Origin: a virus
Lineage: Duplodnaviria > Heunggongvirae > Uroviricota > Caudoviricetes
Reading direction: 5' to 3' (one strand)
Length of the DNA stretch: 33,680 bases
IMG/VR virus record: IMGVR_UViG_2526164670_000016
Span: 1-33,680 of that record
The translations under genes were made by a program, and so were the position numbers. The notes beneath the pieces are model-generated. The model ran no database searches. It saw nothing but the letters and a program-made list of their open reading frames with translations, and was not told the DNA's origin. Position 1 is the stretch's first letter; each line of letters begins with the position of its first letter. Positions 14,906-31,229 of this stretch are shown piece after piece.

Positions 14906-14907
14906 TT

Positions 14908-15603: not shown

Positions 15604-16076
15604 GACGCGTCACCACGCTGGACAATAAATTCCAGTTGCGACGCCTCCCAGATTTCGGGGTTTACGATGTCCCATTTCTTGCCCTTGAAAGGGATCGGTC
15701 CTTTTTCCACTTCACGCAGGACCAGCGGATCAACCAGCGGGACAACCACATCCAGAATACATGACCCTTCGTCGTCGAACTCCGGGTCCACGGTGGGATC
15801 GGCTAACTTCAGCTCGTCGCGCAGTTCGTTGGCGAATTCATCCACCCAGGCCAGCACCAGGGCATAAATCAGCCCCGGCGAATATTTGCGGTAGGGGAAG
15901 TCATCCCACGACAAACGGGCGGTATAAGTCAGCACCCCGATCCGGCGCTGGTTGTTCCCCAGCGCTTTGGCGTTGCGTACCAGCTCGCAATCCTCCATTG
16001 AACTGGAAAACATCTGCATGGCATCAGGCGGCAGATTTGCCGTAATAAACGCCGTCAGGCTTTCAAGCTGGCTCAT
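15600..16076 (-). CDS. Tail completion protein (P2 gpR-like), 158 aa
   Basis: Immediately after the head completion gene; size and a VLAW-containing motif are similar to gpR from memory. Confidence 0.45.
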   Translation of the reverse strand: MSQLESLTAFITANLPPDAMQMFSSSMEDCELVRNAKALGNNQRRIGVLTYTARLSWDDFPYRKYSPGLIYALVLAWVDEFANELRDELKLADPTVDPEFDDEGSCILDVVVPLVDPLVLREVEKGPIPFKGKKWDIVNPEIWEASQLEFIVQRGDAS

Positions 16077-16606
16077 ATCAAATGCACCCCAACGCGTGGT
16101 TGTCGCAGCATGTTTCGCATCACGTTGGCCGCCTCGGCCAGCAGGCTGGCGCGGGTGTCCTGGCTTTCCTGCCCCGGATGCGATTCACGCCGCCCGATGG
16201 TGGCGAACTCCCCCAGTAAATCGGCCTTTGCGCGGGCGTAGACCGCTTTTTTGTACTGGGCTGTTAACTGGGTTTCGTCGCCCATCTTTGCACCCGGTAC
16301 ATCTGCGGCCCGCTCGCAGGCTTTCGCGTTCCAGTACGTCACCACGTCGGCCAGCGCGTCGTTTACCTCCGCAATAGCGGCCAGCAGGGCCACGCCTGCG
16401 GTTTCTGGCGGCAGATCAGCGGGCAGCGTGCGCACCTTCTGAAACTCGGCCAGATCGAGATCGGGCCAGAACGTCACGCCGTTGGTGATCGCTGTTGGCG
16501 TCACCGTCACTGGCTTGCCGCTGATACTGAAACTTGGGCCACTCATTGGCGTACCTCGGTTTTGCAATAGAAACGGGCTAACGGGTTCCACGGCCAACAA
16601 CCGCAT
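16073..16606 (-). CDS. L: Head completion/stabilisation protein (P2 gpL-like), up to 177 aa
   Basis: Follows the small terminase gene as in the P2 head operon; true start may be the internal ATG (MSGPSF...). Confidence 0.6.
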   Translation of the reverse strand: MRLLAVEPVSPFLLQNRGTPMSGPSFSISGKPVTVTPTAITNGVTFWPDLDLAEFQKVRTLPADLPPETAGVALLAAIAEVNDALADVVTYWNAKACERAADVPGAKMGDETQLTAQYKKAVYARAKADLLGEFATIGRRESHPGQESQDTRASLLAEAANVMRNMLRQPRVGVHLI

Positions 16607-16648
16607 GGTTGATGCCTCCCCCGCGCCCGTCCCGGCTAGCGGGAGTCT

Positions 16649-17350
16649 TTAAAGCTGGGTCAGGCCGTTAATCCGGGCGCGGATTTTTTCGCGCATGGTC
16701 TTAACTCCGGCGTTTTTGTTGTACGCCGCCGCCTGGGCCAAAAGGGCGTCGGCCTGCTCCAGCGTGTTCACATCATCCACGGCAGTGGCTCGCGGCTGCC
16801 CCTTCTCGTCGCGCAGCAGGTAAAGACCGGCGAACTTGAACCACTTCGCGTTAATGTCTTCGTGCAAACGCCACTTTTCGCGGATGTTTTCAAAGGTGCG
16901 GCTGAAATAGGGCTCGATGCTGTGACCGGCTTCCGCCTGCATGATCGCCCACTCCAGCACCGTGTCGGCCACAAAGGCAGGCAGGTTGCTTTTGAAGTTT
17001 TCCGGCGTGGCCTGGCTCTCACTGATAGCCACATCAGCCCAGTCCAGCGCCTTGCCCATTTCCCCCGTATCGAACAGCCAGATCACGCAGTAAACCAGGG
17101 CCGGATTGGCAAAGCGGGCATCACCGGAAAGGTATGCTTCAACGGTTGGCATCCAGCGCGGCAAAAGAACATCGCACTTCATGTCCATACGGTCAGCGCG
17201 TGTCAGATTGCGAAGCCGTTCAACATCCTTTTCCAGTTCCAGCATTTGAATGTGAAAGCTGACCGGCGATGCCGTCAGGGCTTCGCACTTATCCAGCGCC
17301 TTTGCGGCTTTAATGCGTGCTCGGTGTCGCTGACACGGGGTCATAGCCAT
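16649..17350 (-). CDS. M: Terminase endonuclease (small) subunit (P2 gpM-like), 233 aa
   Basis: Conserved P2 order O-N-M-L; sequence resembles gpM-family proteins. Confidence 0.7.
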   Translation of the reverse strand: MAMTPCQRHRARIKAAKALDKCEALTASPVSFHIQMLELEKDVERLRNLTRADRMDMKCDVLLPRWMPTVEAYLSGDARFANPALVYCVIWLFDTGEMGKALDWADVAISESQATPENFKSNLPAFVADTVLEWAIMQAEAGHSIEPYFSRTFENIREKWRLHEDINAKWFKFAGLYLLRDEKGQPRATAVDDVNTLEQADALLAQAAAYNKNAGVKTMREKIRARINGLTQL

Positions 17351-17352
17351 TT

Positions 17353-18375
17353 TTACGCGCCCCCTCCCGGTGCAACTTCGCCGGTCGCAAGGGTGATTTT
17401 GTCGAATGCCGCATACAGCTCGTCATGCTCGACGCCGTAACCTTCCATGCGCAGATAGTTGTTCTCGAAGCGCTTGCGGTCGTCGTTCCATTCCGCTTTA
17501 CGCTTACGTGTACCCTGCTGGGTGTAGATATGCAGGTTGTCCAGCGTGGTGACGATAAGGCGACCCTCCGGCATAAACGGCGGGGTGTACACGGTACGGC
17601 CAGCAACCTGGCGGCCAATAAGCTGCGCGGCAACTTTCTCAGTCGGGCGATCAATCTTATTCATCATTGTGGTGGCGTCGTTGCCGATAAGGTCAGCGGA
17701 AGCCAGCACGACCAGGCGTGGGTCATTGCGGAATGGCTCATAAATGCAGGTGTGCACAAGGTCCGTGACTGCCGCGTCCAGCCCAATAAAGTCAGCCCCT
17801 GACGCACCGATAGTGACGGCATCAGAAATAATCTGCTCAGATGAACGGTCTTTAACGATTTTGTGCCAGCCGATGTTGACGTCTTCGCCGTTCGGGTTAG
17901 CTTCCGGGTCGGTGTCTTCTGCAACACTCGTACCGTTGAACGCCACGCGTAACATGTCCAGCGCGAAAGATTCGTTGCTGAATGCCTGAATACGCTGGAA
18001 AAACTCCTCTTCGCTGCCCGCGTTCGCCCAGACAACCAGCAGGGAGTAAGGCAGATACGAACCAGAATCCGTTTCTACCAGCTTGTACTCGTTACCGGAC
18101 ACACCCAGGGCGCGAGAGAAACGACCGTCTTTTTTACGTCCGGTATAAATACCCGGTTTACCGGTGCTGACCACCTGGCCGGTGATCTGGTCCACATCCA
18201 GCACGTTAGGCAGCAGACGCAGGAACTCAGAACTTTGCAGCAGGGCATTGCGCAGCTGGGTTTCTTTCGGATTGGTCAGCGAGAAGTAGCGCGACGTGTC
18301 CACCTGGCCGTTAGCTTTCGCCAGGCCTGCGGCAAACTTACGCAGCATCTGCTCTGCTTTTGGGGTTAATTGCAT
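17353..18375 (-). CDS. N: Major capsid protein (P2 gpN family), 340 aa
   Basis: Size and position between scaffold and small terminase; motifs comparable to P2 gpN (for example the DPRLVVL region) from memory, but diverged. Confidence 0.8.
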   Translation of the reverse strand: MQLTPKAEQMLRKFAAGLAKANGQVDTSRYFSLTNPKETQLRNALLQSSEFLRLLPNVLDVDQITGQVVSTGKPGIYTGRKKDGRFSRALGVSGNEYKLVETDSGSYLPYSLLVVWANAGSEEEFFQRIQAFSNESFALDMLRVAFNGTSVAEDTDPEANPNGEDVNIGWHKIVKDRSSEQIISDAVTIGASGADFIGLDAAVTDLVHTCIYEPFRNDPRLVVLASADLIGNDATTMMNKIDRPTEKVAAQLIGRQVAGRTVYTPPFMPEGRLIVTTLDNLHIYTQQGTRKRKAEWNDDRKRFENNYLRMEGYGVEHDELYAAFDKITLATGEVAPGGGA

Positions 18376-18403
18376 AATCTTTTATTCCTGAAAAGAATGG
18401 CTG

Positions 18404-19465
18404 TTAAACAAACTCAAACGGTTCTTTGCTTCCGCCTGGCGCACTGCCAGGGCGGCGCGTATTGCCGTTTTCCATCGCTGACAACTTGGTCAGGACGGTA
18501 GTCAGCTGCGTGGTAAGGTTGTCCATCTGGTTGCCAGCTGGCTGGCGACGGGCGGAAAAGTCACGGCGACGGCTGGCGCGTGGGCGCTTCGCTGGCGTCA
18601 CATTGAATGACTTCATGACTTTTGCCAAGTTGGCTTTGGCGGCGCTGAATTCTTCTGCTTTGACTTCGTCTTCCGGGTTTTCGATAACGTCCTGCGCCAG
18701 CTCGGCCACCTCGTCGGCAGCATCAGCGATCTGGGCGGCAACATCTGCCACCACATCAGCGGCCTGTTCCGGGGTATCAACCGTGTCAGCATCACCCGTT
18801 GCGGCGTCTTTACCGCTTTTAAGCAGATCCAGCATTTGCTGAATGAGCGCTTTTAATTCTTCCATTTTTTCTCCGTCGCCCTCGGTGGGCTTATCAGTGT
18901 TTGGCTCTGGCGTTGGCGTAAAATCTTTACTGGCCGAAAATAAACGCGACCAGAAAGAATCTTTTTTATCCGGTTTACTTGTCTGTAATTTTCCTAAGCT
19001 GAATGTTTCCAGACTCCCGCGCTCGGCGTCTTTTTCTTCACCGGCTAAAACAAATTTAATTTTTTCCGTTCCCAGACTTGCCGGAATATCCGTCACAGCC
19101 AGCCCGAAAAGATATTCACGACCACTGCCTGCAAAATCAGTGACAAATTCGGCTGACGTAAATAACTTTTGCCCCATACGGTTGGCATCAATTAAAAATT
19201 GATTCGGGATTAACTGGGCATATAACTTCGTGACGTCACCTTCCGTTTCCACTTTCAGCGCGTCCACTTCACCCAGGTTGCAGGTAAATTCACGCTCGCC
19301 GATATCGTATTGCGGGTGGTGCGGCCAAATCATGGCGGTGTAGGTTTTGCGGGTGTAGGTTTCTGCCGCATCAATCAACCATTGCGGTTCAATGGTGCGA
19401 CCGTCCACAGCCTGTCCAGATGTGGCAATACATAGCCAATCCGTGCGGTAATGAGATTGCGGCAT
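18404..19465 (-). CDS. O: Capsid scaffolding protein (P2 gpO family), 353 aa
   Basis: First gene of the minus-strand head operon, divergent from P; acidic Ala/Asp/Glu-rich central region typical of scaffold proteins. Confidence 0.75.
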   Translation of the reverse strand: MPQSHYRTDWLCIATSGQAVDGRTIEPQWLIDAAETYTRKTYTAMIWPHHPQYDIGEREFTCNLGEVDALKVETEGDVTKLYAQLIPNQFLIDANRMGQKLFTSAEFVTDFAGSGREYLFGLAVTDIPASLGTEKIKFVLAGEEKDAERGSLETFSLGKLQTSKPDKKDSFWSRLFSASKDFTPTPEPNTDKPTEGDGEKMEELKALIQQMLDLLKSGKDAATGDADTVDTPEQAADVVADVAAQIADAADEVAELAQDVIENPEDEVKAEEFSAAKANLAKVMKSFNVTPAKRPRASRRRDFSARRQPAGNQMDNLTTQLTTVLTKLSAMENGNTRRPGSAPGGSKEPFEFV

Positions 19466-19642
19466 AGCTGACCTTTAATAATGAATTTAAATAACAATAA
19501 TTCGTTTGTGGTGGTCAGTATTGCGAATTGATTAAAACAGCGCGACCGCTTTATTTCTTATGTATTCGGTTATAACTGGATAGCCACTTTATACCGATAT
19601 TTAATCATCAATTTTGCAAAATAATCCCGCCATAATAGCCGC
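19466..19642. promoter_or_regulatory. Divergent intergenic region between the O-like and P-like genes; expected site of Ogr-dependent late promoters
   Basis: 177-bp AT-rich spacer between divergently transcribed late operons; I did not find a perfect TGT-N12-ACA dyad by eye. Confidence 0.3.
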
Positions 19643-21454
19643 ATGGCTAAATATTCCGATGAATTAAAAGAAGCGGCCCGCACGCTTTATATAAAAAGCT
19701 GGACGCCGAAAGATATTGCGCAGGAACTGAATATTCCACCGCGTACAATTTACCACTGGGCTGACGTCGGGAAGTGGGCATCACTGCAGCCTGTTGAATC
19801 GGTGGAAAATGTCATCGCCCGCCGTATCGACCAGCTCTCCCGCCGCGAGAAAAAAACAGCGCTGGAACTGGAAGAACTGCGCGATCTAATTGCTCACCAT
19901 GTGAAACTCATGGCGCAGCGCAACAAGCACGCCGAAAAGCTGGCAGAAATTCAGGCCCAGAAAACGGCTTATGATGGTGAAGGGTACTGCCTCAGCAGCG
20001 CAGGCGGGGAACCAGGGGAAAGAAAGCGCCGGTATAAGAAAAACGACGTTTCCGGTATTACAGCGGAAATGCTCGACACCTGGGCGCAGGAACATCTCTT
20101 CGAGTACCAGCTGCACTGCCGCGAACATAAAGGCGAAGACTGGCGCTTCATTCTGAAAAGCCGCCAGGTGGGTATGACCTATTATTTCGCCTGGGAAGCA
20201 TTCGAAGACGCCGTCATTACCGGTGACAACCAGGTCTTTTTCTCTGCAAGCCGATCCCAGTCGGAAATCTTCCGCGAATACATCGTCCAGATCGCCCAGA
20301 ACCATTTCGGCGTGACGCTGACGGGTAAAAATATCCGCCTCAGTAACGGCGCAATACTGCGCTTTTTGTCCACGAACGCCAGCACCGCGCAGGGCTTTAA
20401 CGGCCACCTGTATGGCGATGAGGTTTTCTGGATCCCGAAATTCACGCGCCTGCATGAAGTTGCCAGCGCAATGGCAACGCATAACAAATACCGCACGACC
20501 TACTTTTCGACGCCCAGCGCGAAAACGCACCAGGCTTACCCGGTCTGGACTGGCGAAGCCTGGCGCGGGGACGACCCGAAACGCAAAGGTGTGAAGTTCC
20601 CGAACGAAAGCGAAATGTGCCAGGGCATTCTTTGCCCGGACCAGATCTGGCGCTACATCATCACGATGGAAGACGCTATCGAAGGCGGCCTCGGGGCGCT
20701 TGTCGATATTGAACGGCTGCGCAACAAATACAGCCCGACCGCGTTCGCCATGCTCTACATGTGCCAGTTTGTTGACAGTAAGGACGCGGTTTTCAAGTTC
20801 TCCGCGCTTGTCGGCTGTGAAGTGGACCGGGCCACATGGGGCGACTTTGATCTGACCGCTACGCGGCCTTTCGGCAATCGCGAAGTATGGGCAGGTTTTG
20901 ACCCGTCGCGCTCCGGCGACAACTCAACATTTGTGTTAATCGCGCCCCCTATAGAGGACGGCGAGCGCTTCCGCGTGCTGGCCGTCTGGCAATGGCAGGG
21001 TTTTAACTTCAGCTGGCAGGCCGACCAGATAAAGCAGCTTATGCGCCGCTTTAACATCACTTACATCGGGATCGATACAACCGGCATAGGTAAAGGCGTT
21101 TATGACCTTGTCAGCAAATTTGCGCCACGCGAAGCCACACCAATTCTTTACAGCGTCGAAAGCAAAAACCGCCTGGTGATGAAGATGATCGACGTTGTCG
21201 AGCGTAAGCGCATCGAATGGGCAAAAGACGCCGTAGACGAAACGAACAAGGAGCGCGTCGAAATTCCGGCCAGCTTTATGGCTATCCGGCGCACGACAAC
21301 CAACAGCGGCAATGCGCTGACGTTTGTTGCCGAACGTTCAGACGCGACCGGCCATGCAGATGTTTTCTTCGCTATCTCGCACGCCGTAATTAACGAACCT
21401 ATCGATCACGAATATGACCGCCCATCGGGCTGGTACTTTGGGAAAGCAGCATGA
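19643..21454 (+). CDS. P: Terminase ATPase (large) subunit (P2 gpP family), 603 aa
   Basis: Length and P2-like position, divergent from O and followed by the portal gene with an ATGA overlap. Confidence 0.85.
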   Translation: MAKYSDELKEAARTLYIKSWTPKDIAQELNIPPRTIYHWADVGKWASLQPVESVENVIARRIDQLSRREKKTALELEELRDLIAHHVKLMAQRNKHAEKLAEIQAQKTAYDGEGYCLSSAGGEPGERKRRYKKNDVSGITAEMLDTWAQEHLFEYQLHCREHKGEDWRFILKSRQVGMTYYFAWEAFEDAVITGDNQVFFSASRSQSEIFREYIVQIAQNHFGVTLTGKNIRLSNGAILRFLSTNASTAQGFNGHLYGDEVFWIPKFTRLHEVASAMATHNKYRTTYFSTPSAKTHQAYPVWTGEAWRGDDPKRKGVKFPNESEMCQGILCPDQIWRYIITMEDAIEGGLGALVDIERLRNKYSPTAFAMLYMCQFVDSKDAVFKFSALVGCEVDRATWGDFDLTATRPFGNREVWAGFDPSRSGDNSTFVLIAPPIEDGERFRVLAVWQWQGFNFSWQADQIKQLMRRFNITYIGIDTTGIGKGVYDLVSKFAPREATPILYSVESKNRLVMKMIDVVERKRIEWAKDAVDETNKERVEIPASFMAIRRTTTNSGNALTFVAERSDATGHADVFFAISHAVINEPIDHEYDRPSGWYFGKAA

Positions 21455-22512
21455 CAAAGAAACAGCGTAAAAATAAAAAATTCGGGTCCATGACCGGCAG
21501 CCGGGTTGAAACCTTCACGCCAGGGCGCGGAAGCGTGATCACATTTGGCGAACCAGAACCCATCCTGACGACCGGCACGGATTATCACAATATCTGGTAT
21601 GACAATGAGTATGACCACTGGCGACTTCCGATTGATCGCCTGGCGCTGGCCCAGTTGCCGAACCTTAACGGCCAGCATGGTGGTGTACTGTATGCGCGGC
21701 GCAATATGGTGGCCGGTGGCTACATCGGCGGCGGCCTGACGCCTGACCAGGTCGAACAGGCTGTCTTTGATTACCTGCTGTTTGGTGACGTTGCTATCCT
21801 GAAAATTCGTAACGTATTCGGGGAAGTGATCGACCTGCTGCCGCTGCCGTCGCTGTATCTTCGCTGCCGAAAAGACGGGTCGTTTGCTGTTTTGCAGGAA
21901 GGGCCAGCACTTATCTATGACCCGGAAGACATCGTCTTTTTTAAAATGTACGACCCGCGCCAGCAGGTGTATGGCCTGCCTGACTATATTGGCGGCATCC
22001 ATTCGGTGTTACTCAACAGTGAGGCAACCATCTTCCGACGCCGTTACTACAACAACGGGGCGCACATGGGCTTTATTCTCTATACCAGCGATCCGAATCT
22101 TACTCTGGAAATGGAAAACGAAATCAAAGAGAAGATCGCCCAGTCCAAAGGGCTGGGTAACTTCCGAAATATGTTTATCAACATCCCGAAGGGCGACCCG
22201 GAAGGGGTTAAAATCCTGCCGGTGGGCGAAGTCAGCGCAAAGGACGAATTTGCCAACATCAAAGGGATCACCGCACAGGATATCTTTACCGCTCACCGTT
22301 TCCCCGCTGGCCTGGCGGGTATCATCCCGACCAACGGCGCGGTAATGGGCAACCCTGAAACCGCCCGCACAACCTATCGCAAGGATGAAGTTATCCCCTT
22401 GCAGCGCAAGCTAATGAACGGCGTCAACAATGACCCGGAGATCCCCGCACACTTGCACCTGGTTTTTGACGTGGATATCCCGGCAATTACCACCGAAAAG
22501 GGCGAAAAATGA
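21451..22512 (+). CDS. Q: Portal protein (P2 gpQ family), 353 aa
   Basis: Size and position after the large terminase gene, with translational coupling. Confidence 0.85.
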   Translation: MTKKQRKNKKFGSMTGSRVETFTPGRGSVITFGEPEPILTTGTDYHNIWYDNEYDHWRLPIDRLALAQLPNLNGQHGGVLYARRNMVAGGYIGGGLTPDQVEQAVFDYLLFGDVAILKIRNVFGEVIDLLPLPSLYLRCRKDGSFAVLQEGPALIYDPEDIVFFKMYDPRQQVYGLPDYIGGIHSVLLNSEATIFRRRYYNNGAHMGFILYTSDPNLTLEMENEIKEKIAQSKGLGNFRNMFINIPKGDPEGVKILPVGEVSAKDEFANIKGITAQDIFTAHRFPAGLAGIIPTNGAVMGNPETARTTYRKDEVIPLQRKLMNGVNNDPEIPAHLHLVFDVDIPAITTEKGEK

Positions 22513-22568
22513 ACGCAGTTAAGTTAAAATCATCCCCACTGTTAGCAATGGCGTGCGGGATGGTGAAC

Positions 22569-22835
22569 ATGCGAGTTTTTAAAATTAAATGTCCTGAATG
22601 CGGCTCACCGGCCATCATTCGTAAATCTGACTGGAAAGACAAAAAACTGGCTGATTTATACTGCGCCTGCACGGAAGTTGAATGCGGCCACACCTTTGTT
22701 TTTAACGCCCAGTTTTCACATACCCTCAGCCCCAGCGGGCTGACCGGCAACAAGCTGGTTAAATTCCTGATTGACCGACTCAAGCCGGAAGAACGGCAAT
22801 TCGCGCTGGACCTGCTCAACGGCCAGACGGCATAA
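22569..22835 (+). CDS. ogr: Ogr/Delta-family zinc-finger late-gene transcriptional activator, 88 aa
   Basis: MRVFKIKCPECGSPAIIRK...YCACTEVECGH gives a C-x2-C-x22-C-x4-C motif as in P2 Ogr; ATG at 22569 with GGGATGG upstream (track ORF starts earlier at 22509). Confidence 0.75.
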   Translation: MRVFKIKCPECGSPAIIRKSDWKDKKLADLYCACTEVECGHTFVFNAQFSHTLSPSGLTGNKLVKFLIDRLKPEERQFALDLLNGQTA

Positions 22836-22837
22836 AC

Positions 22838-22869
22838 GAAGCCCGCATAAAGCGGGCTTCTTTTCATTT
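22838..22869 (+). terminator. Rho-independent terminator after ogr
   Basis: GAAGCCCGC-ATAAA-GCGGGCTTC hairpin followed by TTTTCATTT, starting 3 nt after the ogr stop. Confidence 0.65.
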
Positions 22870-22943
22870 AGAGTGATGTAATGTTATCCGCTATTTTGTT
22901 ACATTCATGGTGGATTTTGCCCTAATATCTGAGGAAAGAAGAT

Positions 22944-24299
22944 ATGCGAATGACCGCTCCAACCAAATCCTTTACTGATGGATTTTGTGAGAATGATGAT
23001 ATTTTTGAAAGAAAAAAACTCCACGATATCATTATGCGGGTTGCCACTAACGCCCCTGATAAAAGTTTAGTTTTAGCATTAGATGATAAATGGGGTAATG
23101 GGAAAACTTCATTTGTAAAAATGATGGAGTCAGAGATAAACAAAAACCACTCCGACGATTTCGAAGTCATCTATTTTGATGCTTTTAAAAGTGATTATCA
23201 GTCTGATCCATTTGTGGCATTAACTTCTAGCATATATTCTCTTATAAACAAAAGTGATGGAAAGTTAAAAACGCTATGTAAGGAACTGTTAGACATTGGA
23301 AAAAAACTTGGTGCCTCATTTGCTATAAATGGTGCGAAGTTTGCAATCAGTACACTTTCAGGTGGGTTACTATCTGGAACCGTTTTTGATAAGGCTACAG
23401 ACACAATAACTGACTCTATCTCTTCGCCCGTAGAGGAATATATAGAAAGCAAAATAAAAAATAGTGAAAGTGAAATCGCGATTATTGAGCGGTTTGGTGA
23501 TTTATTAACTAAAATTTGTGAACAAAGTGGTAAGAAAATATTTTTTATAATCGATGAGCTTGATCGTGCCCGCCCTGACTTTTCATTAGACTTATTAGAG
23601 AAAATAAAACATATATTTTCGGTTAAAGGTGTTATTTTCCTGTTGGTTGTTAATCGTGAACAATTTGAAAAAAGCATTGAATGTCGATATGGCAATATTA
23701 ACGCAAGGCTGTACCTTAATAAATTTGTCCATTACTGGTTTAGTCTTCCGAAGAGAAGCTATCTTTCTGAGGATTGTTTAAATAGATTTAAGCACTCCAC
23801 TATAAAACAATACCTTCTCACTATAGATAATGGTAATAATTTCTTCGTTCGCAATGGCTCCCTTGTAAATACGCTGGCGTATTTGTTAGAAGTCAATGGT
23901 TGTTCACTACGAGAGGCTGAGCGTTGTTACTCTGTGTTTGCAGTTATTGCAAATCCGAATAAAATAAACGAGTACAGTACCGATGCTTATAAAGTTGCAA
24001 TGGGACTAGTTGCATTTCTGAAAGTTCATAACCCTCAAATTCTATCTGATATCATATATAAGCGATATGAATTAAAAGAAATTCTACCAAAGCTATCAAT
24101 CAAAAGAGAACATTTAGAATATATCTCGGAGGTCTACTTACTTGATCACTTACTACAGTACCACTACAAATCAGATGAAGAATTAAAAAACCCTGAGAAC
24201 CAAAATCAATTTTCTGACTTACAAGGTTATTTTGGTCGAAGAGCCCCTGTTTTAGAAATGATGTTTGAAACAGTTGAAGGGTTTAATATTAGTTATTAA
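22944..24299 (+). CDS. KAP-family P-loop NTPase (PifA-like), 451 aa; candidate phage-exclusion protein
   Basis: Walker A WGNGKTS (aa 50-56) and Walker B IFFIIDELDRARPD (about aa 200) in the KAP style, with a hydrophobic insert between them (ASFAINGAKFAISTLSGGLLSGTVF); low-GC gene with its own RBS (GAGGAAAG) in the cargo island. Confidence 0.6.
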   Translation: MRMTAPTKSFTDGFCENDDIFERKKLHDIIMRVATNAPDKSLVLALDDKWGNGKTSFVKMMESEINKNHSDDFEVIYFDAFKSDYQSDPFVALTSSIYSLINKSDGKLKTLCKELLDIGKKLGASFAINGAKFAISTLSGGLLSGTVFDKATDTITDSISSPVEEYIESKIKNSESEIAIIERFGDLLTKICEQSGKKIFFIIDELDRARPDFSLDLLEKIKHIFSVKGVIFLLVVNREQFEKSIECRYGNINARLYLNKFVHYWFSLPKRSYLSEDCLNRFKHSTIKQYLLTIDNGNNFFVRNGSLVNTLAYLLEVNGCSLREAERCYSVFAVIANPNKINEYSTDAYKVAMGLVAFLKVHNPQILSDIIYKRYELKEILPKLSIKREHLEYISEVYLLDHLLQYHYKSDEELKNPENQNQFSDLQGYFGRRAPVLEMMFETVEGFNISY

Positions 24300-24346
24300 A
24301 CCGTAAAAACATTATTTGCAGGCTCTTTGCCGCCCGCACCCGCAGA

Positions 24347-24389
24347 ATCCTGCAGGCCGACGCAAACAGTTGCGACGTCCTGCAGGATT
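24347..24389. repeat. GC-rich inverted repeat (AATCCTGCAGG ... CCTGCAGGATT with a partly palindromic 22-nt centre)
   Basis: Perfect 11-bp arms at 24347-24357 and 24379-24389 between the convergent KAP gene and the 24394-25104 ORF. Confidence 0.5.
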
Positions 24390-24393
24390 GCAT

Positions 24394-25050
24394 TCATTCT
24401 TTTGGGGGGCGACCTTCTGCACCCGCCAGCATTTTTTGATACTCCCCGACCGGATCAAACCGCAGACGCGTGGCATCTATGCCGTGGTTTTCCCGCAGAC
24501 GTTCCCATAATTTATTCACCATCCGTGACTCGTCGGGTAATTGACGCGTTATCAACTGGCCGCCAGCACTGGCCCGATAAACTTTTCCGCCAATCTCCAG
24601 ACGGCTCCCCATTAACAGCGAAACGGCCTGAATCTCTGAAATCTCAACCGAACACAACACCGCATCTGCCAGCAGACTGGCAACCGCAGGGGCAAGCGCT
24701 GCCTGCCTAGCTTTTTCAGCCTCCGATCTGGCCTCGGTTTTTTCAACGGCAGAACGCCAGGCGACATCTAATTCGCTTCCTGGCTCATAAGGTGATCCGC
24801 TTTGCCGCCTTTTGAATGGTGTTTCACGTAGTCGCCGCATCAATTTGCGCCGCGTTGGCTGGTCCATATCTTCAAAATCGACGATTTCATCGTCTGAATC
24901 TTCTGTCGTTAACTCTCCGTCAGCTGGCACAGCCATTTCTGACATTGAAAAATCGGTGATTTTTTCGTCTTCCGTAGAGTTATTGACAGAACTCGAACTC
25001 AAACACTCTGTACATTTTTGTGCAGTATAAAAAGTCTTCATGTTGATCAT
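24394..25050 (-). CDS. Hypothetical protein, acidic N-terminal region; start uncertain (ATG at 25050 or 25041; track ORF starts at a GTG at 25104)
   Basis: Single open frame across a GC-rich segment that contrasts with the AT-rich flanking cargo genes; no strong RBS; no family recognised. Confidence 0.3.
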   Translation of the reverse strand: MINMKTFYTAQKCTECLSSSSVNNSTEDEKITDFSMSEMAVPADGELTTEDSDDEIVDFEDMDQPTRRKLMRRLRETPFKRRQSGSPYEPGSELDVAWRSAVEKTEARSEAEKARQAALAPAVASLLADAVLCSVEISEIQAVSLLMGSRLEIGGKVYRASAGGQLITRQLPDESRMVNKLWERLRENHGIDATRLRFDPVGEYQKMLAGAEGRPPKE

Positions 25051-25118
25051 CAGTGCATAGACTTTTATGATTAGTTCAAAATGGCATTGTGCAGTATGCT
25101 CCACAACGGGTGAGACTT

Positions 25119-25682
25119 ATGAACATTCAAACCGAGACAATTTTTAGCATTGGGCATGGTGCTCGCAGGCTAGAAGAATTTATAGCTTTGTTGAAAAAAT
25201 ATCATATCAGATATGTTATAGACGTTCGTTCAAAACCCAGATCTAGGTTTCACCCACATTTTAATCGTGAAGCTTTGACTCTTCATTTGAAAGAAGCAGG
25301 CATTCGATACGTATTCATGGGAGAACAATTAGGTGGTATTCCTAAAGATGATCAATGTTACGATGAAGACGGACGGGTTGATTACGAAAAAATAAAAAAC
25401 AAAGCTTTTTTCCATGAGGGAATTGAGAGAATAAAAACGGCTCATTCAAAAAATTTAAAAATTGCATGTATGTGTAGCGAGCTATCCCCTTGCGATTGCC
25501 ATAGAAGTAAATTAATTGGTGATTACTTGCAATCACTCGGGATAGAAATGCAGCATATAGATAAGAAAGGAGATATTAGTTCACAAAATGACGTAATGAA
25601 GGAAGTGCTCGGCTCAAACGGTGAATTGGACCTATTTTCGGACAACACCAAAAAATTAAAATCAAGAAAATCGTATCGTTGA
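25119..25682 (+). CDS. DUF488-like protein, 187 aa
   Basis: N-terminal IFSIGHGARRLEEFIALLKK...VIDVRSKPRSRFHPHFNRE and later CMCSE..PCDCHR match what I recall as the DUF488 signature; ATG at 25119 with GGTGAG upstream (track ORF starts at a GTG at 25089); low GC. Confidence 0.55.
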   Translation: MNIQTETIFSIGHGARRLEEFIALLKKYHIRYVIDVRSKPRSRFHPHFNREALTLHLKEAGIRYVFMGEQLGGIPKDDQCYDEDGRVDYEKIKNKAFFHEGIERIKTAHSKNLKIACMCSELSPCDCHRSKLIGDYLQSLGIEMQHIDKKGDISSQNDVMKEVLGSNGELDLFSDNTKKLKSRKSYR

Positions 25683-25697
25683 ATAAAGGGTATTGAG

Positions 25698-26309
25698 ATG
25701 AATACTGATGTAATAATTCTTTCCAGAACAAAAATGTCTGGAGATAAAATTTGCGTAGGTGGATTAGATCTTAATAGTGGGAAGATGTTAAGATTATTGG
25801 ATAATAGAGCAAGTGCTTTGACTTCAGCTTATCCATATAGTATTGGCGAAACATACTCAATAGAGTTTGCTGAAAGGTATCAAGTAGCAGCCCCACATGT
25901 TGAAGATGTAGCTGTTTATGACTACAGCTTAGCGAAAAGTTTTAATAAAGTAGATCTAGATACTATCGTCCATAAACACTCTGGTACATATAACAATCTT
26001 AGTGAACTCTTCTCTGGAAAACTTCACTGGCAAAACTCCAAGGGATATGCTTTGGAGTCAGACCCTCCGGAATTTAGCGTTCAAATAGCAAAAATTAATA
26101 AAATCCTAGTTAGAAATGGAACTGACTTTCAAGAGTTCGGCTCACTCAATCCGCGCAAAGTTAAATATGTTGGCGAACTTGATATAAATAGACTCCCTAG
26201 TAGAATAAATCCTGGCACACCTATTAGATTTTCTTTAGCTCGACCTTGGGATAAGGATAATAATGGTATTAAAGTGTGTTATTTACAACTATCTGGAGTT
26301 TACATTTAA
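25698..26309 (+). CDS. Hypothetical protein, 203 aa, co-operonic partner of the DUF488-like gene
   Basis: ATG 15 bp after the DUF488 stop with AAAGGG..GAG upstream; AT-rich; no family recognised. Confidence 0.5.
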   Translation: MNTDVIILSRTKMSGDKICVGGLDLNSGKMLRLLDNRASALTSAYPYSIGETYSIEFAERYQVAAPHVEDVAVYDYSLAKSFNKVDLDTIVHKHSGTYNNLSELFSGKLHWQNSKGYALESDPPEFSVQIAKINKILVRNGTDFQEFGSLNPRKVKYVGELDINRLPSRINPGTPIRFSLARPWDKDNNGIKVCYLQLSGVYI

Positions 26310-26428
26310 AAATTATTTAATATTAGAATAACGCGCTCAGCATTAACTTATTTTATAAAATGCAGAGCGCCTTATGAAATATAACTATTCAAACCTTTCG
26401 TTGAATCAATATCATTTATATTCGAAAA

Positions 26429-28927
26429 TTACTCTATCGCCTTTCTCCAGCGACTGAGCAACTCATCAACTCTATGCCTTGCCAGCGTTTTACGCCAGTT
26501 CATATCCGCACCGGTCACAATCAACTCCCCTGTAATTTGGTTGGCACGGTAAGTAGTATCAAGCGCAGTCACTTCTCTCCCTTGTACCAGCTTTAGCACT
26601 TGCACAGGTGTGATTTGGATCTTTCTTAACTTCGCCCAATCCAGTACCTGAGCAACTAGGGCTGTAACGTTCTTATCTACTACGCTTTCTTCCTGGCGGA
26701 GCGCATACGCGGCTTTTAAATAGCTTTCCGCTCTAGCTCGGTTATATTCGGTGCACTCACCCACAGTGATACTGTACGCAAGTGACTCAAACTCATCTGC
26801 TGCTGAAACACGCTGCGTTTGTTTGTGGATTTTCAGGCCTTCAGCAATCTCTTTTTTCTGTTCCCACCTTAATTTGCCGATTTCAAATTGCTCTGGAGAT
26901 TCATCCCTAGTCGGCAAAGTCAGATCTGGCCGATAAACAACCTGGCAATCTGTTTGTTTTTTGTACTCAGTACAGTTATTGACACGAGTCCTAGAGGGCG
27001 CAGACGCGCCCTTAAGGTCAACAGCAAGGTCAACGGCCTTGCCTGAATCGTTAATAATCTCCGGTTTCTTACGCACAATCCGATAAGAATGTAGGCGGGT
27101 TTCAACTGGCGGCATGAAGATGTGAGGCATCACCAGTCCTTTAATTAAGGTCTGGTATTCACCGTGATCGTTTGGCTGGTCTTTTTGTTGATACCAGATG
27201 CGCAGTGGCAGATCACAACGGGCAACCAACGCCCCACCCTGCAATTGGGTGTATTGCTGCCAGTCGCCAGCATCCGCTGCACGGTGCAGCTCGGCAAACA
27301 ACGGGTTAATCTGGTCTGCCTTTTCCTGATTGCGGAATCGACGTAGCTCGCGCCAGACTGAAACAGGCGCACCACCAAGGAACTGGAATTGACGAATACC
27401 CCAGCATGATGCCCAGGCCGTCGCATGTTTTGAGGTTTCTTTTAATGGTCTGCCGTTCTCGTCATCTGTTTCACCGTCGAGCGCGTAACCATCAATATTC
27501 TTGCTGATATACTTCACCACATAACCGGTGGCGCTTCCGATTTCATGATCGATAGGCTTCATTTCGAAACGTGGACGAATGCCATGCTTACCCTGCAATT
27601 CGTCCTCATCCTCGCGGGTGGCGTAGTCCTTCATCACTTCCAACAATTCAGCTGAATGTTCTGGTAAGGAAAACAGAAGACCATGCCAGTGTGGCGTTCC
27701 GTCGTGGTGAGATTCAGCCACGCGAAGCCCAAACACCTGAATATCGCGGCGGGCCAACTCAGCGCGGATCTGTTGCCAGACTCGATTAAGATAACGTTGC
27801 GTGGTTCTTGGACTGGCCCCGTTCCATTTGCCATTACGATGACCGAAGACGGTATAGGCATGATATTTGGAAGGTGCTGTCATGGTGAAAAACTGCCCTG
27901 CATAGCCACTTTCGGTAGCGACTTTCTCGAAGCCACCGATGCGAGTCATAAGCTCAACGCGGCGCAAAGCTGGGTTAGATATGCTCTTATCTATTTGCTC
28001 AATGAGTGAAATGCGTTCTTTGGTTTCCTGATCTTCCAGCTCAAGCCTGGCCATAATCGCCCGGCTGCGTTTCCGCCTAGTGTCCCACTCTTCAACATGA
28101 TGCTTACTGCAATATGGCGCAGCGCCTCGCTTCACATCACCAAAAGCGATGTGCAGATGTTCACGCCAGCGCGTGCCGTACTTTTTAAGATTTCGGTGCC
28201 AGTAGCGATCATCCAGCATCTTGCTGATACCGGTCGTCGCCTCATCAATAAACAATTTACCCCGGCAATACTTTTCCCAGTTCGGTGGCGTTAGAAAGAA
28301 AAGACGCGCAAGTTGTGCCGCCTCGGTGTAAAGGTATTCGGCATACCGGCGATCACTTTGCGTCTCTACCGTTTCGTGTACCTCGCTCAGCACCGACCGC
28401 ATATAGATCGCAATATCCTGCGCTAATAGTTCAACATCTTCCGGCGTGTAGTCCGGCAGCCTGTTGAATCTCTCAACTAAACCGTTAAGGGTATCAAATA
28501 CATGGTAAAGCGGGTTTAACTTTTTGAATGCTGTTTCAGCTTGTGATTTTGCGTCTTCGGTCATCGCAATTGCGTATTGAGCATTCACCATATTGATGGG
28601 CGGCAGCTCTCTGCGGATGATGTCTCTTACTGCCTGACGGGCAATATGTCGGCCCTTCATCGTGTGAATACTGTCAATGCGAGAAGCCAAGCGCAGGCGT
28701 ATAAAGCGAGGAAGTCTCGAAAGGGTAAGTTTCACCCACGACAAAAACTCTTGTTCTTGACCCAATTCGAATAGATCAACAACAGGAGTCTTATCAACAT
28801 AAATAGCTGCATTAGGCTTTTGCCACTCGTAATCGTAATTGATATCAGCAGCAGAATTAGACATACCCCTGCCGCCAACTAACTGGCGGCGATTGTTACT
28901 CGGCCGAACAAACGCGGAGTCTGTCAC
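26429..28927 (-). CDS. A: Replication initiation endonuclease (P2 gpA-like rolling-circle initiator), 832 aa from the GTG at 28927
   Basis: HUH motif (DGTPHWHGLLF) and catalytic tyrosine motif (GYVVKYISKNIDGYALDG) as I recall from P2 gpA; GTGA overlap with the Dam stop, alternative ATG at 28864. Confidence 0.85.
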   Translation of the reverse strand: MTDSAFVRPSNNRRQLVGGRGMSNSAADINYDYEWQKPNAAIYVDKTPVVDLFELGQEQEFLSWVKLTLSRLPRFIRLRLASRIDSIHTMKGRHIARQAVRDIIRRELPPINMVNAQYAIAMTEDAKSQAETAFKKLNPLYHVFDTLNGLVERFNRLPDYTPEDVELLAQDIAIYMRSVLSEVHETVETQSDRRYAEYLYTEAAQLARLFFLTPPNWEKYCRGKLFIDEATTGISKMLDDRYWHRNLKKYGTRWREHLHIAFGDVKRGAAPYCSKHHVEEWDTRRKRSRAIMARLELEDQETKERISLIEQIDKSISNPALRRVELMTRIGGFEKVATESGYAGQFFTMTAPSKYHAYTVFGHRNGKWNGASPRTTQRYLNRVWQQIRAELARRDIQVFGLRVAESHHDGTPHWHGLLFSLPEHSAELLEVMKDYATREDEDELQGKHGIRPRFEMKPIDHEIGSATGYVVKYISKNIDGYALDGETDDENGRPLKETSKHATAWASCWGIRQFQFLGGAPVSVWRELRRFRNQEKADQINPLFAELHRAADAGDWQQYTQLQGGALVARCDLPLRIWYQQKDQPNDHGEYQTLIKGLVMPHIFMPPVETRLHSYRIVRKKPEIINDSGKAVDLAVDLKGASAPSRTRVNNCTEYKKQTDCQVVYRPDLTLPTRDESPEQFEIGKLRWEQKKEIAEGLKIHKQTQRVSAADEFESLAYSITVGECTEYNRARAESYLKAAYALRQEESVVDKNVTALVAQVLDWAKLRKIQITPVQVLKLVQGREVTALDTTYRANQITGELIVTGADMNWRKTLARHRVDELLSRWRKAIE

Positions 28928-29910
28928 CGCTCAGACTCCACGCCACATGTCGCAGCCGTTGCCAGCATTTCGTTATAGGTCGCGTTACCCATTACAGGGC
29001 CACAATCAGGGCAACCACCACCACCGGCACGACCACAGCCGCTACACAATTTGAGGACGCCGATCACTTCACTGGCGGCCCCTCGGGTAATGGCGTTCGC
29101 GCTAACAGAACGGTTAACGCTGATTTCCTGGAAGTTGAAACAGCGATAAATCTCGCGGGTGACTGGGGTGTCGCTATTGGACAGGATCACCGGCGAACCA
29201 GTAAGGCGGTTAATATCCAGCAGGACGGCAGCTAACTGGCGATGTTCTTTAATGCCAAACGGGGCTGTGTGATATTGGGTGAAATTAGCTGTTTCGCTTG
29301 TTGGCAGGTATGGCGGATCGCAGTAGATAACCGCGTCACTACCAATCATGATTTTTAACGTGCTCTGGAAATCGCAGCACACGAAAATGGCTTTCGTGTC
29401 GTTAGCTTTTTCAGAGAATAAACGGATCTGTTCTTCCGGGAAGTAAGGCGGGGTTTTGTGACGCCCAAAGGGAACGTTATATCCACCCTGTTGGTTGTAG
29501 CGTACTACGCCGTTATATCCGTGACGGTTCAGGTAAAGAAATTGTGCTGCACGAAGAATCTTGCCCGCGTCCGGCCCATCTTCAAACACACTGCGCAATG
29601 ACAGTAGGTCACGTGCGCGGGCGTTGAAATCATCGCGGATCCATTTATAGCCGTCTTTATCGCCGTACACTTTAAACAGTGGGCGAGCAGCGTCGATCAC
29701 CGCATCAGGCCAGCGGGTTATCTGGCGATACAGGTTAATTAAATCTGGGTTGATATCACCCAGGATATAACGGCGATATTCAGTATTGAGGAAAACAGAA
29801 GCACCGCCGACAAACGGTTCCACCAGGCAATCGGCTTTCGGCAGAATCGGCAGCAAATCAGGCATAACGCGGCCTTTACCACCGGGCCATTTAACGAGAG
29901 ATCGAATCAT
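28924..29910 (-). CDS. DNA adenine methyltransferase, Dam-like, with a Cys-rich C-terminal extension, 328 aa
   Basis: WPGGKGRV...EPFVGGASVF (SAM-binding) and IYCDPPY (catalytic DPPY) closely resemble E. coli Dam from memory; extra tail CSGCGRAGGGGCPDCGP; GGAG RBS before the ATG at 29910. Confidence 0.85.
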   Translation of the reverse strand: MIRSLVKWPGGKGRVMPDLLPILPKADCLVEPFVGGASVFLNTEYRRYILGDINPDLINLYRQITRWPDAVIDAARPLFKVYGDKDGYKWIRDDFNARARDLLSLRSVFEDGPDAGKILRAAQFLYLNRHGYNGVVRYNQQGGYNVPFGRHKTPPYFPEEQIRLFSEKANDTKAIFVCCDFQSTLKIMIGSDAVIYCDPPYLPTSETANFTQYHTAPFGIKEHRQLAAVLLDINRLTGSPVILSNSDTPVTREIYRCFNFQEISVNRSVSANAITRGAASEVIGVLKLCSGCGRAGGGGCPDCGPVMGNATYNEMLATAATCGVESER

Positions 29911-29980
29911 TTTTACTTTCTCCAGGGTGCAAGAAGCCCGACGCGTTAGCGCCTGTTTCTTTTTTGTGGGTAGTTAGTTG

Positions 29981-30376
29981 TTAATTTACTGCGTTATCTG
30001 GCGCGGGTGGTTTGTCGCGTATCGCCTGAATTTCGGCGCGTGGTGCGGCGTAGTCCTCAAATTCCCACGGCATTGATGCTGCAAATTCGGAAAGGCGCTT
30101 AATGCCCATCAAAAGGCACGTTTGCTCCTTTTCGGTTAGATTTTCGTAAGTACAACCCAGCTGTTTGGCGGTCAGCTTCGGCATTCCGACTATGTATCTG
30201 GACGCATCGTTTGCCAGGATGAAAATCACCTTTTTGCAGGCATCATCCAGGCGGTTAAAACGGGTTGCAGTGTCATTCACGCGTGAGGCGTTCAAACTGG
30301 CTTGCAGCCGCGCCCGTTGCTCTAAGAACTGGCGGCGACCTGGCTGTTGTTCTGTCTTATCCATCAACATAACCAC
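29981..30376 (-). CDS. Hypothetical early-operon protein, up to 131 aa (sits where P2 has gene B, but not recognised as B)
   Basis: ORF in the early operon between the 97-aa ORF and the Dam gene; several candidate starts; no family recognised. Confidence 0.4.
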   Translation of the reverse strand: MVMLMDKTEQQPGRRQFLEQRARLQASLNASRVNDTATRFNRLDDACKKVIFILANDASRYIVGMPKLTAKQLGCTYENLTEKEQTCLLMGIKRLSEFAASMPWEFEDYAAPRAEIQAIRDKPPAPDNAVN

Positions 30377-30385
30377 CTCCCCGAA

Positions 30386-30679: not shown

Positions 30680-30745
30680 CGCTATGCCTGTGAAACTTTG
30701 GAGAGTGAATCAGGCATAACAATCACCAACACAGAAGGAGTTGTA

Positions 30746-31225: not shown

Positions 31226-31229
31226 TCCA

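What the first reader, a model, noticed from the sequence alone, without database searches (positions are those of the whole stretch)
22569..22869. Ogr-type late activator relocated downstream of the portal gene
A clear Ogr zinc finger (C-x2-C-x22-C-x4-C) is encoded immediately after Q on the same strand and closed by a strong terminator, rather than between the tail genes and att as in P2 or 186. That could make it co-transcribed with the packaging genes it is supposed to activate, which implies different late-gene timing.
Basis: partly seen in the sequence, partly recalled or inferred. Interest (0 to 1): 0.4.

Follow-up and report, generated by a model that had tools for sequence, protein, structure and literature searches.

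The report
Ogr-type late activator after portal gene
The window holds a P2-family prophage whose zinc-finger late-gene activator sits right after the portal gene; this is real, but it is the normal, already published position for the HP1/K139-like branch of these phages, so the finding is ordinary.

Summary
ORF 22509-22835 (+) encodes a 108-aa protein. It carries an Ogr/Delta zinc finger (Pfam PF04606, 62.9 bits, E 2.6e-17; C-x2-C-x22-C-x4-C). It lies directly after portal gene Q and is closed by a strong intrinsic terminator (-18.4 kcal/mol). It is the only such gene in the window and in complete genomes of the same phage species (Salmonella phages SI7, SW3).

The gene has not moved in this element alone. 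The order P-Q-ogr-terminator recurs in Irrigatiovirus, ESSI-2, vB_YenM_324, K139/kappa, phiO18P, F108, HP1 and BIBS67. It is published for K139 and Smhb1, with the same "different timing" speculation. RefSeq already names it "ogr/Delta-like zinc finger family protein" next to the portal gene.

Co-transcription with P-Q is plausible: the genes overlap as ATGA, and I found no promoter or terminator between them. It does not set this phage apart from P2, whose ogr also ends a late operon.

By-products, all inferred:
- A conserved dyad, TTCGG-N14-CCGAA, lies between O and P instead of P2's TGT-N12-ACA.
- Perfect LexA boxes lie upstream of the homologous gene in K139, phiO18P, F108 and ACA2. The window has none.

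The parts
19466..19642 (.). Divergent control region between scaffold gene O (- strand) and terminase gene P (+ strand); presumed late promoters PO and PP
   Evidence: Gene map. The phylogenetic footprint across 17 relatives shows conserved blocks. The scan found no sigma-70-like promoter here.
19565..19588 (.). Conserved dyad-like element TTCGGTTATAACTGGATAGCCACT (family consensus TTCGGATAT-N6-ATATCCGAA); candidate operator of the Ogr-like activator (inferred)
   Evidence: TTCGG and TA.CC are invariant in the footprint. The dyad is perfect in kappa/K139, and related versions occur in HP1, phiO18P and ESSI-2. It is the best-scoring copy in the whole window, HP1 and kappa genomes. Binding was not tested.
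19631..19636 (+). Conserved CATAAT (-10-like) 6 nt before the P start codon, with no Shine-Dalgarno sequence; possible PP -10 and leaderless P mRNA (speculative)
   Evidence: Conserved block CATAATAG; sequence.
19643..21454 (+). Gene P, terminase large subunit
   Evidence: Pfam Terminase_6N, Terminase_6C and Terminase_5 (gpP-like).
21451..22512 (+). Gene Q, portal protein; its start overlaps the P stop codon as ATGA
   Evidence: Pfam Phage_portal; ATGA overlap read.
22498..22502 (+). AAGGG, a Shine-Dalgarno-like sequence 6 nt before ATG 22509. It lies within AAGGGCGAAAAATGA, which is invariant or nearly so in relatives although the portal C-terminus just upstream varies
22509..22835 (+). Ogr/Delta-family zinc-finger protein, long form (108 aa); its start overlaps the Q stop codon as ATGA
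   Evidence: PHROG 603 'transcriptional regulator', E 8e-42, matches residues 1-107. The same overlapping start is annotated in SW5, ESSI-2 and vB_YenM_324.
22525..22530 (+). TAAAAT, a -10-like hexamer inside the 5' extension; possible internal promoter for the short form (inferred, weak)
   Evidence: T1, A2, A5 and T6 are invariant in 34 distinct relatives, including two third-codon positions. A homologous TAAAAT lies in non-coding DNA of L058. It falls below the promoter scan threshold.
22569..22835 (+). Core or short form (88 aa), equivalent to the whole protein in K139, phiO18P and L058
   Evidence: Core dN/dS is 0.03-0.10.
22590..22685 (+). C-x2-C-x22-C-x4-C zinc-finger motif
22838..22864 (+). 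Intrinsic terminator (stem-loop 22838-22860 plus T run); marks the end of the conserved late module
   Evidence: Homology to SI7 ends at 22863.
22944..24299 (+). First cargo gene after the terminator (KAP-family NTPase); context only, not part of the late operon
   Evidence: Pfam KAP_NTPase; PADLOC PDC-S20.

Best explanation
ORF 22509-22835 encodes the single Ogr/Delta-family zinc-finger late-gene activator of an HP1-like P2-family prophage. The prophage is about 96% identical in DNA to Salmonella phages SI7, SW3 and SW5 (genus Irrigatiovirus).

The site directly downstream of portal gene Q is the usual one for the HP1/K139-like branch of Peduoviridae. It is not a rearrangement peculiar to this element.

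In this enterobacterial clade the gene is the third cistron of the rightward late operon P-Q-ogr. Each junction is an ATGA stop/start overlap, so translation is probably coupled. An intrinsic terminator ends the operon at the border of a variable cargo region.

By analogy with P2 Ogr, 186 B and P4 Delta, the protein should bind upstream of late promoters that lack a -35 element and recruit RNA polymerase. Here the most likely target is the conserved dyad at 19565-19588, between the divergent O and P genes. Activating PP would then also raise the protein's own synthesis, a positive-feedback loop. The first molecules would come from basal PP activity or from a weak internal promoter.

Shown: family membership, position, overlaps, terminator, conservation, and purifying selection.
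Inferred: co-transcription, the operator, activation and feedback.

The confidence of 0.7 is a blend: about 0.95 for identity and lineage-typical position, about 0.65 for co-transcription, about 0.45 for the dyad as operator.
For: Family membership:
- Pfam PF04606 scores 62.9 bits against a cut-off of 26.3.
- The four Cys are invariant in an alignment with P2 Ogr.
- The protein matches PHROG 603, 'transcriptional regulator'.

Phage context:
- The window holds gpO, gpP, portal, gpA, Cox, C and int.
- It is 96.5% identical to SW5, SW3 and SI7.

Single copy.

Same position in other phages:
- Seven further genera or phages.
- 53 of 57 IMG/VR relatives keep the ATGA overlap.
- Published for K139 and Smhb1 (PMC8537503).
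- RefSeq names the gene as ogr/Delta-like next to the portal gene in 19 E. coli genomes.

Purifying selection: core dN/dS is 0.03-0.10.

Operon reading:
- ATGA overlaps at both junctions.
- AAGGGCGAAAAATGA is invariant or nearly so.
- The scan found no promoter-like site between the P start and the ogr-like ORF on the + strand, and a strong terminator only after it.

Operator:
- The dyad is conserved from the window to kappa, HP1, phiO18P and ESSI-2, inside otherwise unalignable intergenic DNA.
- It is the best-scoring copy in each whole genome tested.

Precedents:
- P2 ogr ends the late F operon and shares its terminator.
- One palindromic site serves both the PP' and PO' promoters in phage Smp131 (PMC3931495).
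Against: - No transcript, binding or activation data exist for this protein or for any HP1-like homologue that I could find.
- The P2 operator TGT-N12-ACA is absent from the O-P region here and in four other HP1-like phages. The target is therefore inferred only from conservation.
- In the window the right half of the dyad is degenerate (13 of 18 positions).
- The 20-codon N-terminal extension is weakly constrained as protein (dN/dS 0.2-0.8) and has low dS. The long form, and with it translational coupling, is not proven.
- A -10-like TAAAAT inside the extension is conserved at third-codon positions. That hints at an independent promoter.
- Homologues in other genera have a gap after Q that holds their own promoter-like sequence with a LexA box. 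Co-transcription is therefore not the general rule in this lineage.
- The prophage may be defective, because int is interrupted by a transposase.
Confidence: 0.7

Rival explanations
1. The gene is expressed mainly from its own weak promoter, embedded in the end of Q and in its 5' extension (-35-like GCGAAA 22502-22507, 17-nt spacer, -10 TAAAAT 22525-22530). That transcript would yield the short 88-91-aa protein from ATG 22560 or 22569. Under this reading the ATGA overlap and the 'long form' are by-products. Timing would then be set as in other HP1-like phages and P2, by a dedicated promoter. This can coexist with read-through from PP.
For: - The hexamer TA[AG][AG]AT is invariant at T1, A2, A5 and T6 in 34 distinct relatives, even where the encoded Lys changes to Glu or Arg.
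- L058 has a homologous TAAAAT in non-coding DNA, downstream of a LexA-like box.
- The extension has low dS and high dN/dS, a sign of nucleotide-level constraint.
- GCGTGCGGGG is conserved just before ATG 22569 and could serve as its ribosome-binding site.
- RefSeq annotates SI7 with a shorter 91-aa form.
- Homologues in K139, phiO18P, F108, HP1 and ACA2 have their own promoter-like regions.
Against: - The site matches only 8 of 12 consensus positions, and the promoter scan did not report it.
- The -35 match is poor, and it lies in the same nucleotides as the Shine-Dalgarno/ATGA signal.
- The frame stays open with a conserved LKS..LLA pattern as far out as ESSI-2, at 55% identity.
- There is no experimental transcription start site.
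Confidence: 0.3
2. One reading: in this element the ogr gene was moved from the D-att end to a site behind Q, producing a new circuit with different late-gene timing.
For: - The position does differ from P2.
- Within the HP1-like branch, only the enterobacterial clades fuse the gene to Q with no gap and no LexA box. The wiring of this clade is therefore somewhat distinct.
Against: - The position is shared by at least eight phage genera or lineages and is already described in the literature.
- HP1-like phages also place cos next to attP rather than after Q (PMC2771037). The whole architecture differs by lineage; no single gene has moved.
- P2 ogr is also co-transcribed with a late operon.
Confidence: 0.1
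3. The protein is an Ogr-fold zinc finger with another job. It might control the adjacent cargo or defence genes, act on a satellite, or act on the lysis-lysogeny switch. Late genes would then be controlled by something else.
For: - The canonical P2 late-promoter motif is absent.
- The protein fails the NCBIfam Ogr equivalog model (19.8 bits against a cut-off of 116).
- It sits next to a variable cargo region.
- Some relatives place a LexA box in front of the gene.
Against: - The gene stays attached to the conserved late module while the cargo beyond the terminator changes.
- It is the only Ogr-family gene in these genomes.
- Strong purifying selection acts on it.
- I found no other candidate late activator among the annotated genes.
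Confidence: 0.07

Closest known systems
Ogr homologue of Vibrio phage K139/kappa (ORF13 / kp19) and of Salinivibrio phage Smhb1
   Same: - 51% identity over the core.
- The same C4 motif, the HTLSPS motif and the C-terminal L..L.PE.RQ region.
- The same position after P-Q, convergent with the replication operon (PMC8537503).
- The same dyad between O and P.
   Different: - K139 has a small ORF and a 70-nt gap after Q, holding a perfect LexA box and a promoter-like sequence.
- The window gene has no gap and no box. It carries a 20-codon extension that overlaps the Q stop codon.
'Transcriptional regulator' of Salmonella phages SI7, SW3 and SW5 (Irrigatiovirus)
   Same: - 99% protein identity.
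- Identical position and terminator.
   Different: - The cargo after the terminator differs: DNA methylases there, a KAP NTPase plus DUF488/DuOB here.
- The annotated start differs between records: 108 aa in GenBank SW5, 91 aa in RefSeq SI7.
P2 Ogr (also 186 B, P4 Delta, PSP3 Pag)
   Same: - The C-x2-C-x22-C-x4-C zinc finger and the same Pfam family.
- A small protein of a P2-family phage.
- The last gene of a late operon, followed by a shared terminator.
   Different: - Only 32% identity over 37 residues.
- Located after Q rather than after D and next to att.
- Has a C-terminal helical tail that P2 Ogr lacks.
- The P2 operator TGT-N12-ACA is absent from the late control region.
- The Tyr42 position of P2 Ogr, which I recall as the site of the rpoA109-suppressing ogr mutation, is not conserved. 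That role of Tyr42 comes from my own knowledge and was not tested here.
phiCTX orf34 and Burkholderia phiE202 gp19 Ogr-like proteins
   Same: Same family and same C4 motif.
   Different: These are encoded in or near the early/replication region, not after Q. Ogr gene position therefore varies by lineage across Peduoviridae.

Membership tests
Ogr/Delta zinc-finger late activators (Pfam PF04606) | Four-cysteine motif C-x2-C-x22-C-x4-C | tested here: met
   CPEC-x22-CTEVEC at 22590-22685. The four Cys are invariant in the alignment with P2 Ogr.
Ogr/Delta zinc-finger late activators (Pfam PF04606) | Profile match above the curated threshold | tested here: met
   62.9 bits against a cut-off of 26.3, E 2.6e-17, profile positions 1-47 of 47.
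Ogr/Delta zinc-finger late activators (Pfam PF04606) | Small protein encoded by a P2-family phage or its satellite | tested here: met
   88-108 aa. The window carries gpO, gpP, portal, gpA, Cox, C and int, and is 96.5% identical to Peduoviridae phages SW5, SW3 and SI7.
Ogr/Delta zinc-finger late activators (Pfam PF04606) | Late promoters carry the TGT-N12-ACA dyad centred near -55 | tested here: not met
   No TGT-N11-13-ACA in the O-P region of the window, kappa, HP1, phiO18P or F108. A different dyad, TTCGG-N14-CCGAA, is conserved there.
Ogr/Delta zinc-finger late activators (Pfam PF04606) | Binds zinc, contacts the RNA polymerase alpha subunit, and activates late transcription | not testable with these tools
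   This needs biochemistry or genetics. It is inferred only from family membership.
P2 Ogr orthologue (NCBIfam NF007241 equivalog) | Score above the equivalog cut-off | tested here: not met
   19.8 bits against a cut-off of 116. Identity to P2 Ogr is 32% over 37 aa. The protein is a family member, not an Ogr equivalog.
Q-adjacent Ogr homologues of HP1-like Peduoviridae (K139 type) | Gene directly downstream of P-Q on the same strand, convergent with the early replication operon | tested here: met
   for the window. for relatives. Described in PMC8537503.
Q-adjacent Ogr homologues of HP1-like Peduoviridae (K139 type) | Shared HTLSPS motif and C-terminal L..L.PE.RQ tail | tested here: met
   Alignment A1; ESSI-2 protein.
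Q-adjacent Ogr homologues of HP1-like Peduoviridae (K139 type) | Own promoter region with a LexA box in a gap after Q (seen in K139, phiO18P, F108, ACA2) | tested here: not met
   No box matching at least 7 of 8 positions within 200 nt upstream of either start in the window, and no gap after Q.

The most novel reading that the evidence does not exclude
HP1-like Peduoviridae may control late genes with an Ogr-family activator that recognises a TTCGGATAT-N6-ATATCCGAA dyad placed once between the divergent O and P operons, rather than P2's TGT-N12-ACA. They may supply that activator through two alternative circuits:
- In K139, phiO18P, F108 and ACA2, a promoter gated by LexA, so that late transcription would be tied to SOS induction or replication stress.
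- In the enterobacterial clades (Irrigatiovirus as in this window, ESSI-2, vB_YenM_324), the gene is fused into the P-Q late operon by an ATGA overlap, giving a self-amplifying loop with no LexA input.
Probability: 0.35. Interest if true: 0.45.

Novelty: already known. Interest (0 to 1): 0.18.

Why it matters
As posed, it matters little. The gene, its family and its position after the portal gene are routine for HP1/K139-like P2-family phages. They are annotated in RefSeq and discussed in print, including the idea that timing might differ.

The by-products are more useful. Late-gene control in the HP1-like branch has, as far as I could find, never been tested. The conserved O-P dyad and the LexA boxes in front of the activator gene in several genera give concrete, cheap experiments. 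These would show how these widespread prophages couple induction or replication to virion production.

Tried and rejected
- **P2 operator.** I searched the window for TGT-N12-ACA. It has 11 hits against 6.9 expected, none in the O-P region. Relaxing the spacing to N11-13 finds none in five O-P regions.
- **P2 cos.** GGCGAGGCGGGGAAAGCAC with up to 3 mismatches gives no hit. HP1-like phages keep cos next to attP.
- **Second Ogr motif.** A six-frame scan of the window finds none in a plausible gene.
- **Extra copies of the dyad** upstream of other late genes. A loose pattern gave only chance-level hits. The 18-position score finds one good copy per genome. The gaps at 12179-12280 and 16548-16649 look GC-rich and unlike promoters.
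- **Sigma-70 promoter upstream of the gene.** None reaches the scan threshold.
- **att repeats and tRNA genes at the window ends.** None found. The right end turned out to be a transposase inside int.
- **Literature.** Kapfhammer 2002 (PMC135448) and Christie 2002 (PMC135442) are not held. I therefore could not check what was said about K139 late promoters or about a LexA box. Searches for the dyad sequence and for Ogr plus LexA found nothing relevant.
- **Not run.** I skipped structure prediction and the large protein searches, because they would not change the verdict.

Full report
**What is there**

ORF 22509-22835 (+) encodes 108 aa. Pfam Ogr_Delta (PF04606) matches residues 27-73 over the full 47-position profile, at 62.9 bits against a cut-off of 26.3 and E 2.6e-17. 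PHROG 603, 'transcriptional regulator', matches residues 1-107 at E 8e-42. The motif CPEC-x22-CTEVEC lies at 22590-22685. No other motif of this spacing lies in a plausible gene in the six-frame translation of the window.

It corresponds to the start of the more distant homologues, which begin MRVF....

The ORF is followed by a stem-loop at 22838-22860 with a T run. It folds at -18.4 kcal/mol, z = -4.6, and 0 of 200 shuffles fold as well.

**The element**

The window is a P2-family prophage. Its parts are:

| Coordinates | Strand | Content |
|---|---|---|
| 1-1362 | + | host U32 peptidase gene |
| about 1679 | | phage/host junction |
| 2175-19465 | - | tail, lysis and head genes, including HP1_ORF34, Baseplate_J and the gpO scaffold |
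| 19643-21454 | + | P, terminase large subunit |
| 21451-22512 | + | Q, portal |
| 22509-22835 | + | Ogr-like gene |
| about 22864-26400 | | variable cargo |
| 26429-31875 | - | early operon with gpA, Dam, Fil and Cox |
| 31992-32291 | + | C repressor |
| 32437-33381 | + | int, truncated by a Mutator-family transposase |

The region tested is 96.5% identical to Salmonella phages SW5, SW3 and SI7 (Peduoviridae, Irrigatiovirus).

**Is the position unusual?**

It is unusual only relative to P2. In P2, ogr follows D and precedes attP. The order P-Q-Ogr-like gene-terminator, convergent with the replication operon, is found in:
- SW5 and SI7
- Cronobacter phage ESSI-2
- Yersinia phage vB_YenM_324
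- Vibrio phage kappa/K139
- Aeromonas phage phiO18P
- Pasteurella phage F108
- Pseudomonas phage BIBS67
- Haemophilus phage HP1, where the gene is unannotated and split by a frameshift in the record

Of 57 IMG/VR relatives, 53 have the portal gene directly upstream with an ATGA overlap. PhiCTX and phiE202 instead carry their Ogr-like gene in the early region. Position therefore follows lineage.

The literature already states that the K139 and Smhb1 ogr homologue lies between the portal and replication genes and that this 'may suggest a different timing' (PMC8537503). PGAP names the gene 'ogr/Delta-like zinc finger family protein' next to 'phage portal protein' in 19 complete E. coli genomes.

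It is negative: complete SW3 and SI7 genomes hold one copy each, and the small genes between the baseplate gene and int are not Ogr-like.

**Co-transcription**

The evidence in favour:
- P/Q and Q/ogr both overlap as ATGA.
- AAGGGCGAAAAATGA, which holds a Shine-Dalgarno-like sequence and the overlap, is invariant or nearly so across 34 distinct relatives, while the portal C-terminus just upstream varies.
- No sigma-70-like site reaches the scan threshold on the + strand between the P start and the ogr-like ORF. The only strong terminator follows the gene.
- The overlapping long ORF is also annotated in ESSI-2 and vB_YenM_324. Its N-terminus keeps an LKS..(L/I)LA pattern at 55% overall identity.

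The evidence that complicates this:
- The 20-codon extension is weakly constrained as protein. Its dN/dS is 0.2-0.8, against 0.03-0.10 for the core, and its dS is lower.
- It contains a -10-like TAAAAT (22525-22530) whose T1, A2, A5 and T6 never vary, third-codon positions included.
- That hexamer has a non-coding counterpart in relative L058.

An internal promoter that makes the short form therefore remains possible. It could also solve the bootstrap problem of an activator encoded in the operon it activates.

Co-transcription would not by itself distinguish this phage from P2. The P2 record annotates a 'rho-independent terminator for ogr transcript and F operon', so P2 ogr also ends a late operon.

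**Likely target**

The P2 operator TGT-N12-ACA (summarised in PMC3931495) is absent from the 177-bp O-P region. It is also absent from the O-P regions of kappa, HP1, phiO18P and F108.

A footprint over 17 relatives shows an invariant TTCGG(T/A)TA...TA.CC at 19565-19588. In other phages the element reads:

| Phage | Sequence |
|---|---|
| kappa/K139 | TTCGGATATGGGGTTATATCCGAA (perfect palindrome) |
| HP1 | GGCGGATAACGTGCTATATCCGAA, with further GGATAT repeats at 10-bp spacing |
| phiO18P | TTCGGATCCATCAGGAAATCCGAA |
| ESSI-2 | TTCGGATATAACGCTTTTCCCGAA |

Scored over 18 positions, the O-P copy is the best in the whole window, HP1 and kappa genomes. A conserved site in otherwise unalignable promoter DNA, found in phages that share this Ogr subtype, is most simply the activator's operator. 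Binding is untested. One palindrome serving both the PP and PO promoters has been proposed for phage Smp131.

A conserved CATAAT lies 6 nt before the P start codon, and there is no Shine-Dalgarno sequence. This hints at a promoter without a -35 element, possibly giving a leaderless mRNA. That is speculative.

**Side observation in related phages**

Perfect SOS boxes (CTGT-N8-ACAG) lie 44-73 nt upstream of the Ogr-like gene in four phages:
- kappa/K139: CTGTACAAAAACACAG
- phiO18P: CTGTATAAAAACACAG
- F108: CTGTATAAAATCACAG
- ACA2: CTGTATATAATGACAG

L058 matches 7 of 8 positions, and HP1 keeps the left half next to TTGATATAAT. The whole kappa genome has only two perfect boxes, against about 0.5 expected. 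One precedes kp19 (the Ogr-like gene) and the other precedes the convergent kp18. The window and ESSI-2 have neither a box nor a gap. I found no mention of this in the papers I could search. Kapfhammer 2002 was not available.

**Verdict**

The sequence observation is correct. The 'relocation' is a lineage trait that is already known and annotated. Co-transcription is plausible but unproven, and it is not a departure in principle from P2. Different timing is not implied by the data. The finding is ordinary, and the score is low. The inferred operator and the LexA boxes in relatives are the only parts that might merit experiments.

Noticed in passing
L059 about 3441-3456 (kappa/K139); L060 (phiO18P) 73 nt before gp19; L068 (F108) 66 nt before Orf17; L071 (ACA2) 44 nt before the Ogr-like gene: Perfect LexA/SOS boxes (CTGT-N8-ACAG) lie just upstream of the Q-adjacent Ogr-like gene in four genera of HP1-like phages, overlapping a putative -35. 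The window clade has none. This suggests SOS-gated expression of the late activator in those phages.
   Followed up: partly
L064 (phage kappa) 11412-11427: The only other perfect SOS box in the kappa genome lies 40 nt upstream of kp18 (81 aa), which is convergent with the Ogr-like kp19. kp18 could be a LexA-controlled antirepressor-type gene.
   Followed up: no
L061 3458-3716 (HP1 record NC_001697, about 10420-10680, - strand): HP1 has an unannotated Ogr-like gene between Q (orf15) and the T31 terminator. In the record it is split by a 1-nt frameshift: MARTTDIYCTVCNSN... in one frame and ...YYCACKNPLCGHRFVMN... in another. This is either a sequencing error or a pseudogene.
   Followed up: partly
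window 22864-26400: A variable cargo region starts exactly after the ogr terminator. It holds a KAP NTPase (PADLOC PDC-S20), DUF488 (PDC-M45B) and a DuOB-domain gene. These replace the DNA methylase genes of SI7. The region is probably an anti-phage defence hotspot, analogous to P2 old/tin.
   Followed up: partly
window 24318-25104 (- strand ORF 24394-25104): A 236-aa ORF is a remnant of the C-terminus of an SI7-type replication protein (95% DNA identity to SI7 27805-28484). It sits next to a second, intact gpA gene at 26429-28927, which marks a mosaic junction.
   Followed up: partly
window about 33260-33680: The integrase gene (32437-33381) is truncated; only positions 2-79 of the 172-position catalytic-domain profile match. 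The window then runs into a Mutator-family (IS256-like) transposase, Pfam PF00872, E 1e-26. The prophage is probably unable to excise.
   Followed up: partly
window 19631-19643: A conserved CATAAT lies 6 nt before the terminase (P) start codon, with no Shine-Dalgarno sequence. The P-Q(-ogr) mRNA may be leaderless.
   Followed up: no
L038 and L056 (both from IMGVR_UViG_3300031110_000610): One 37.8-kb viral contig carries two Ogr-like genes. One follows a portal gene. The other (84% identity) has no portal gene upstream. It may belong to a tandem prophage remnant or a satellite.
   Followed up: no
window 22872-22905: The inverted repeat ATGTAA-N17-TTACAT lies between the ogr terminator and the KAP NTPase gene. 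It looks like an operator and may regulate the cargo gene.
   Followed up: no
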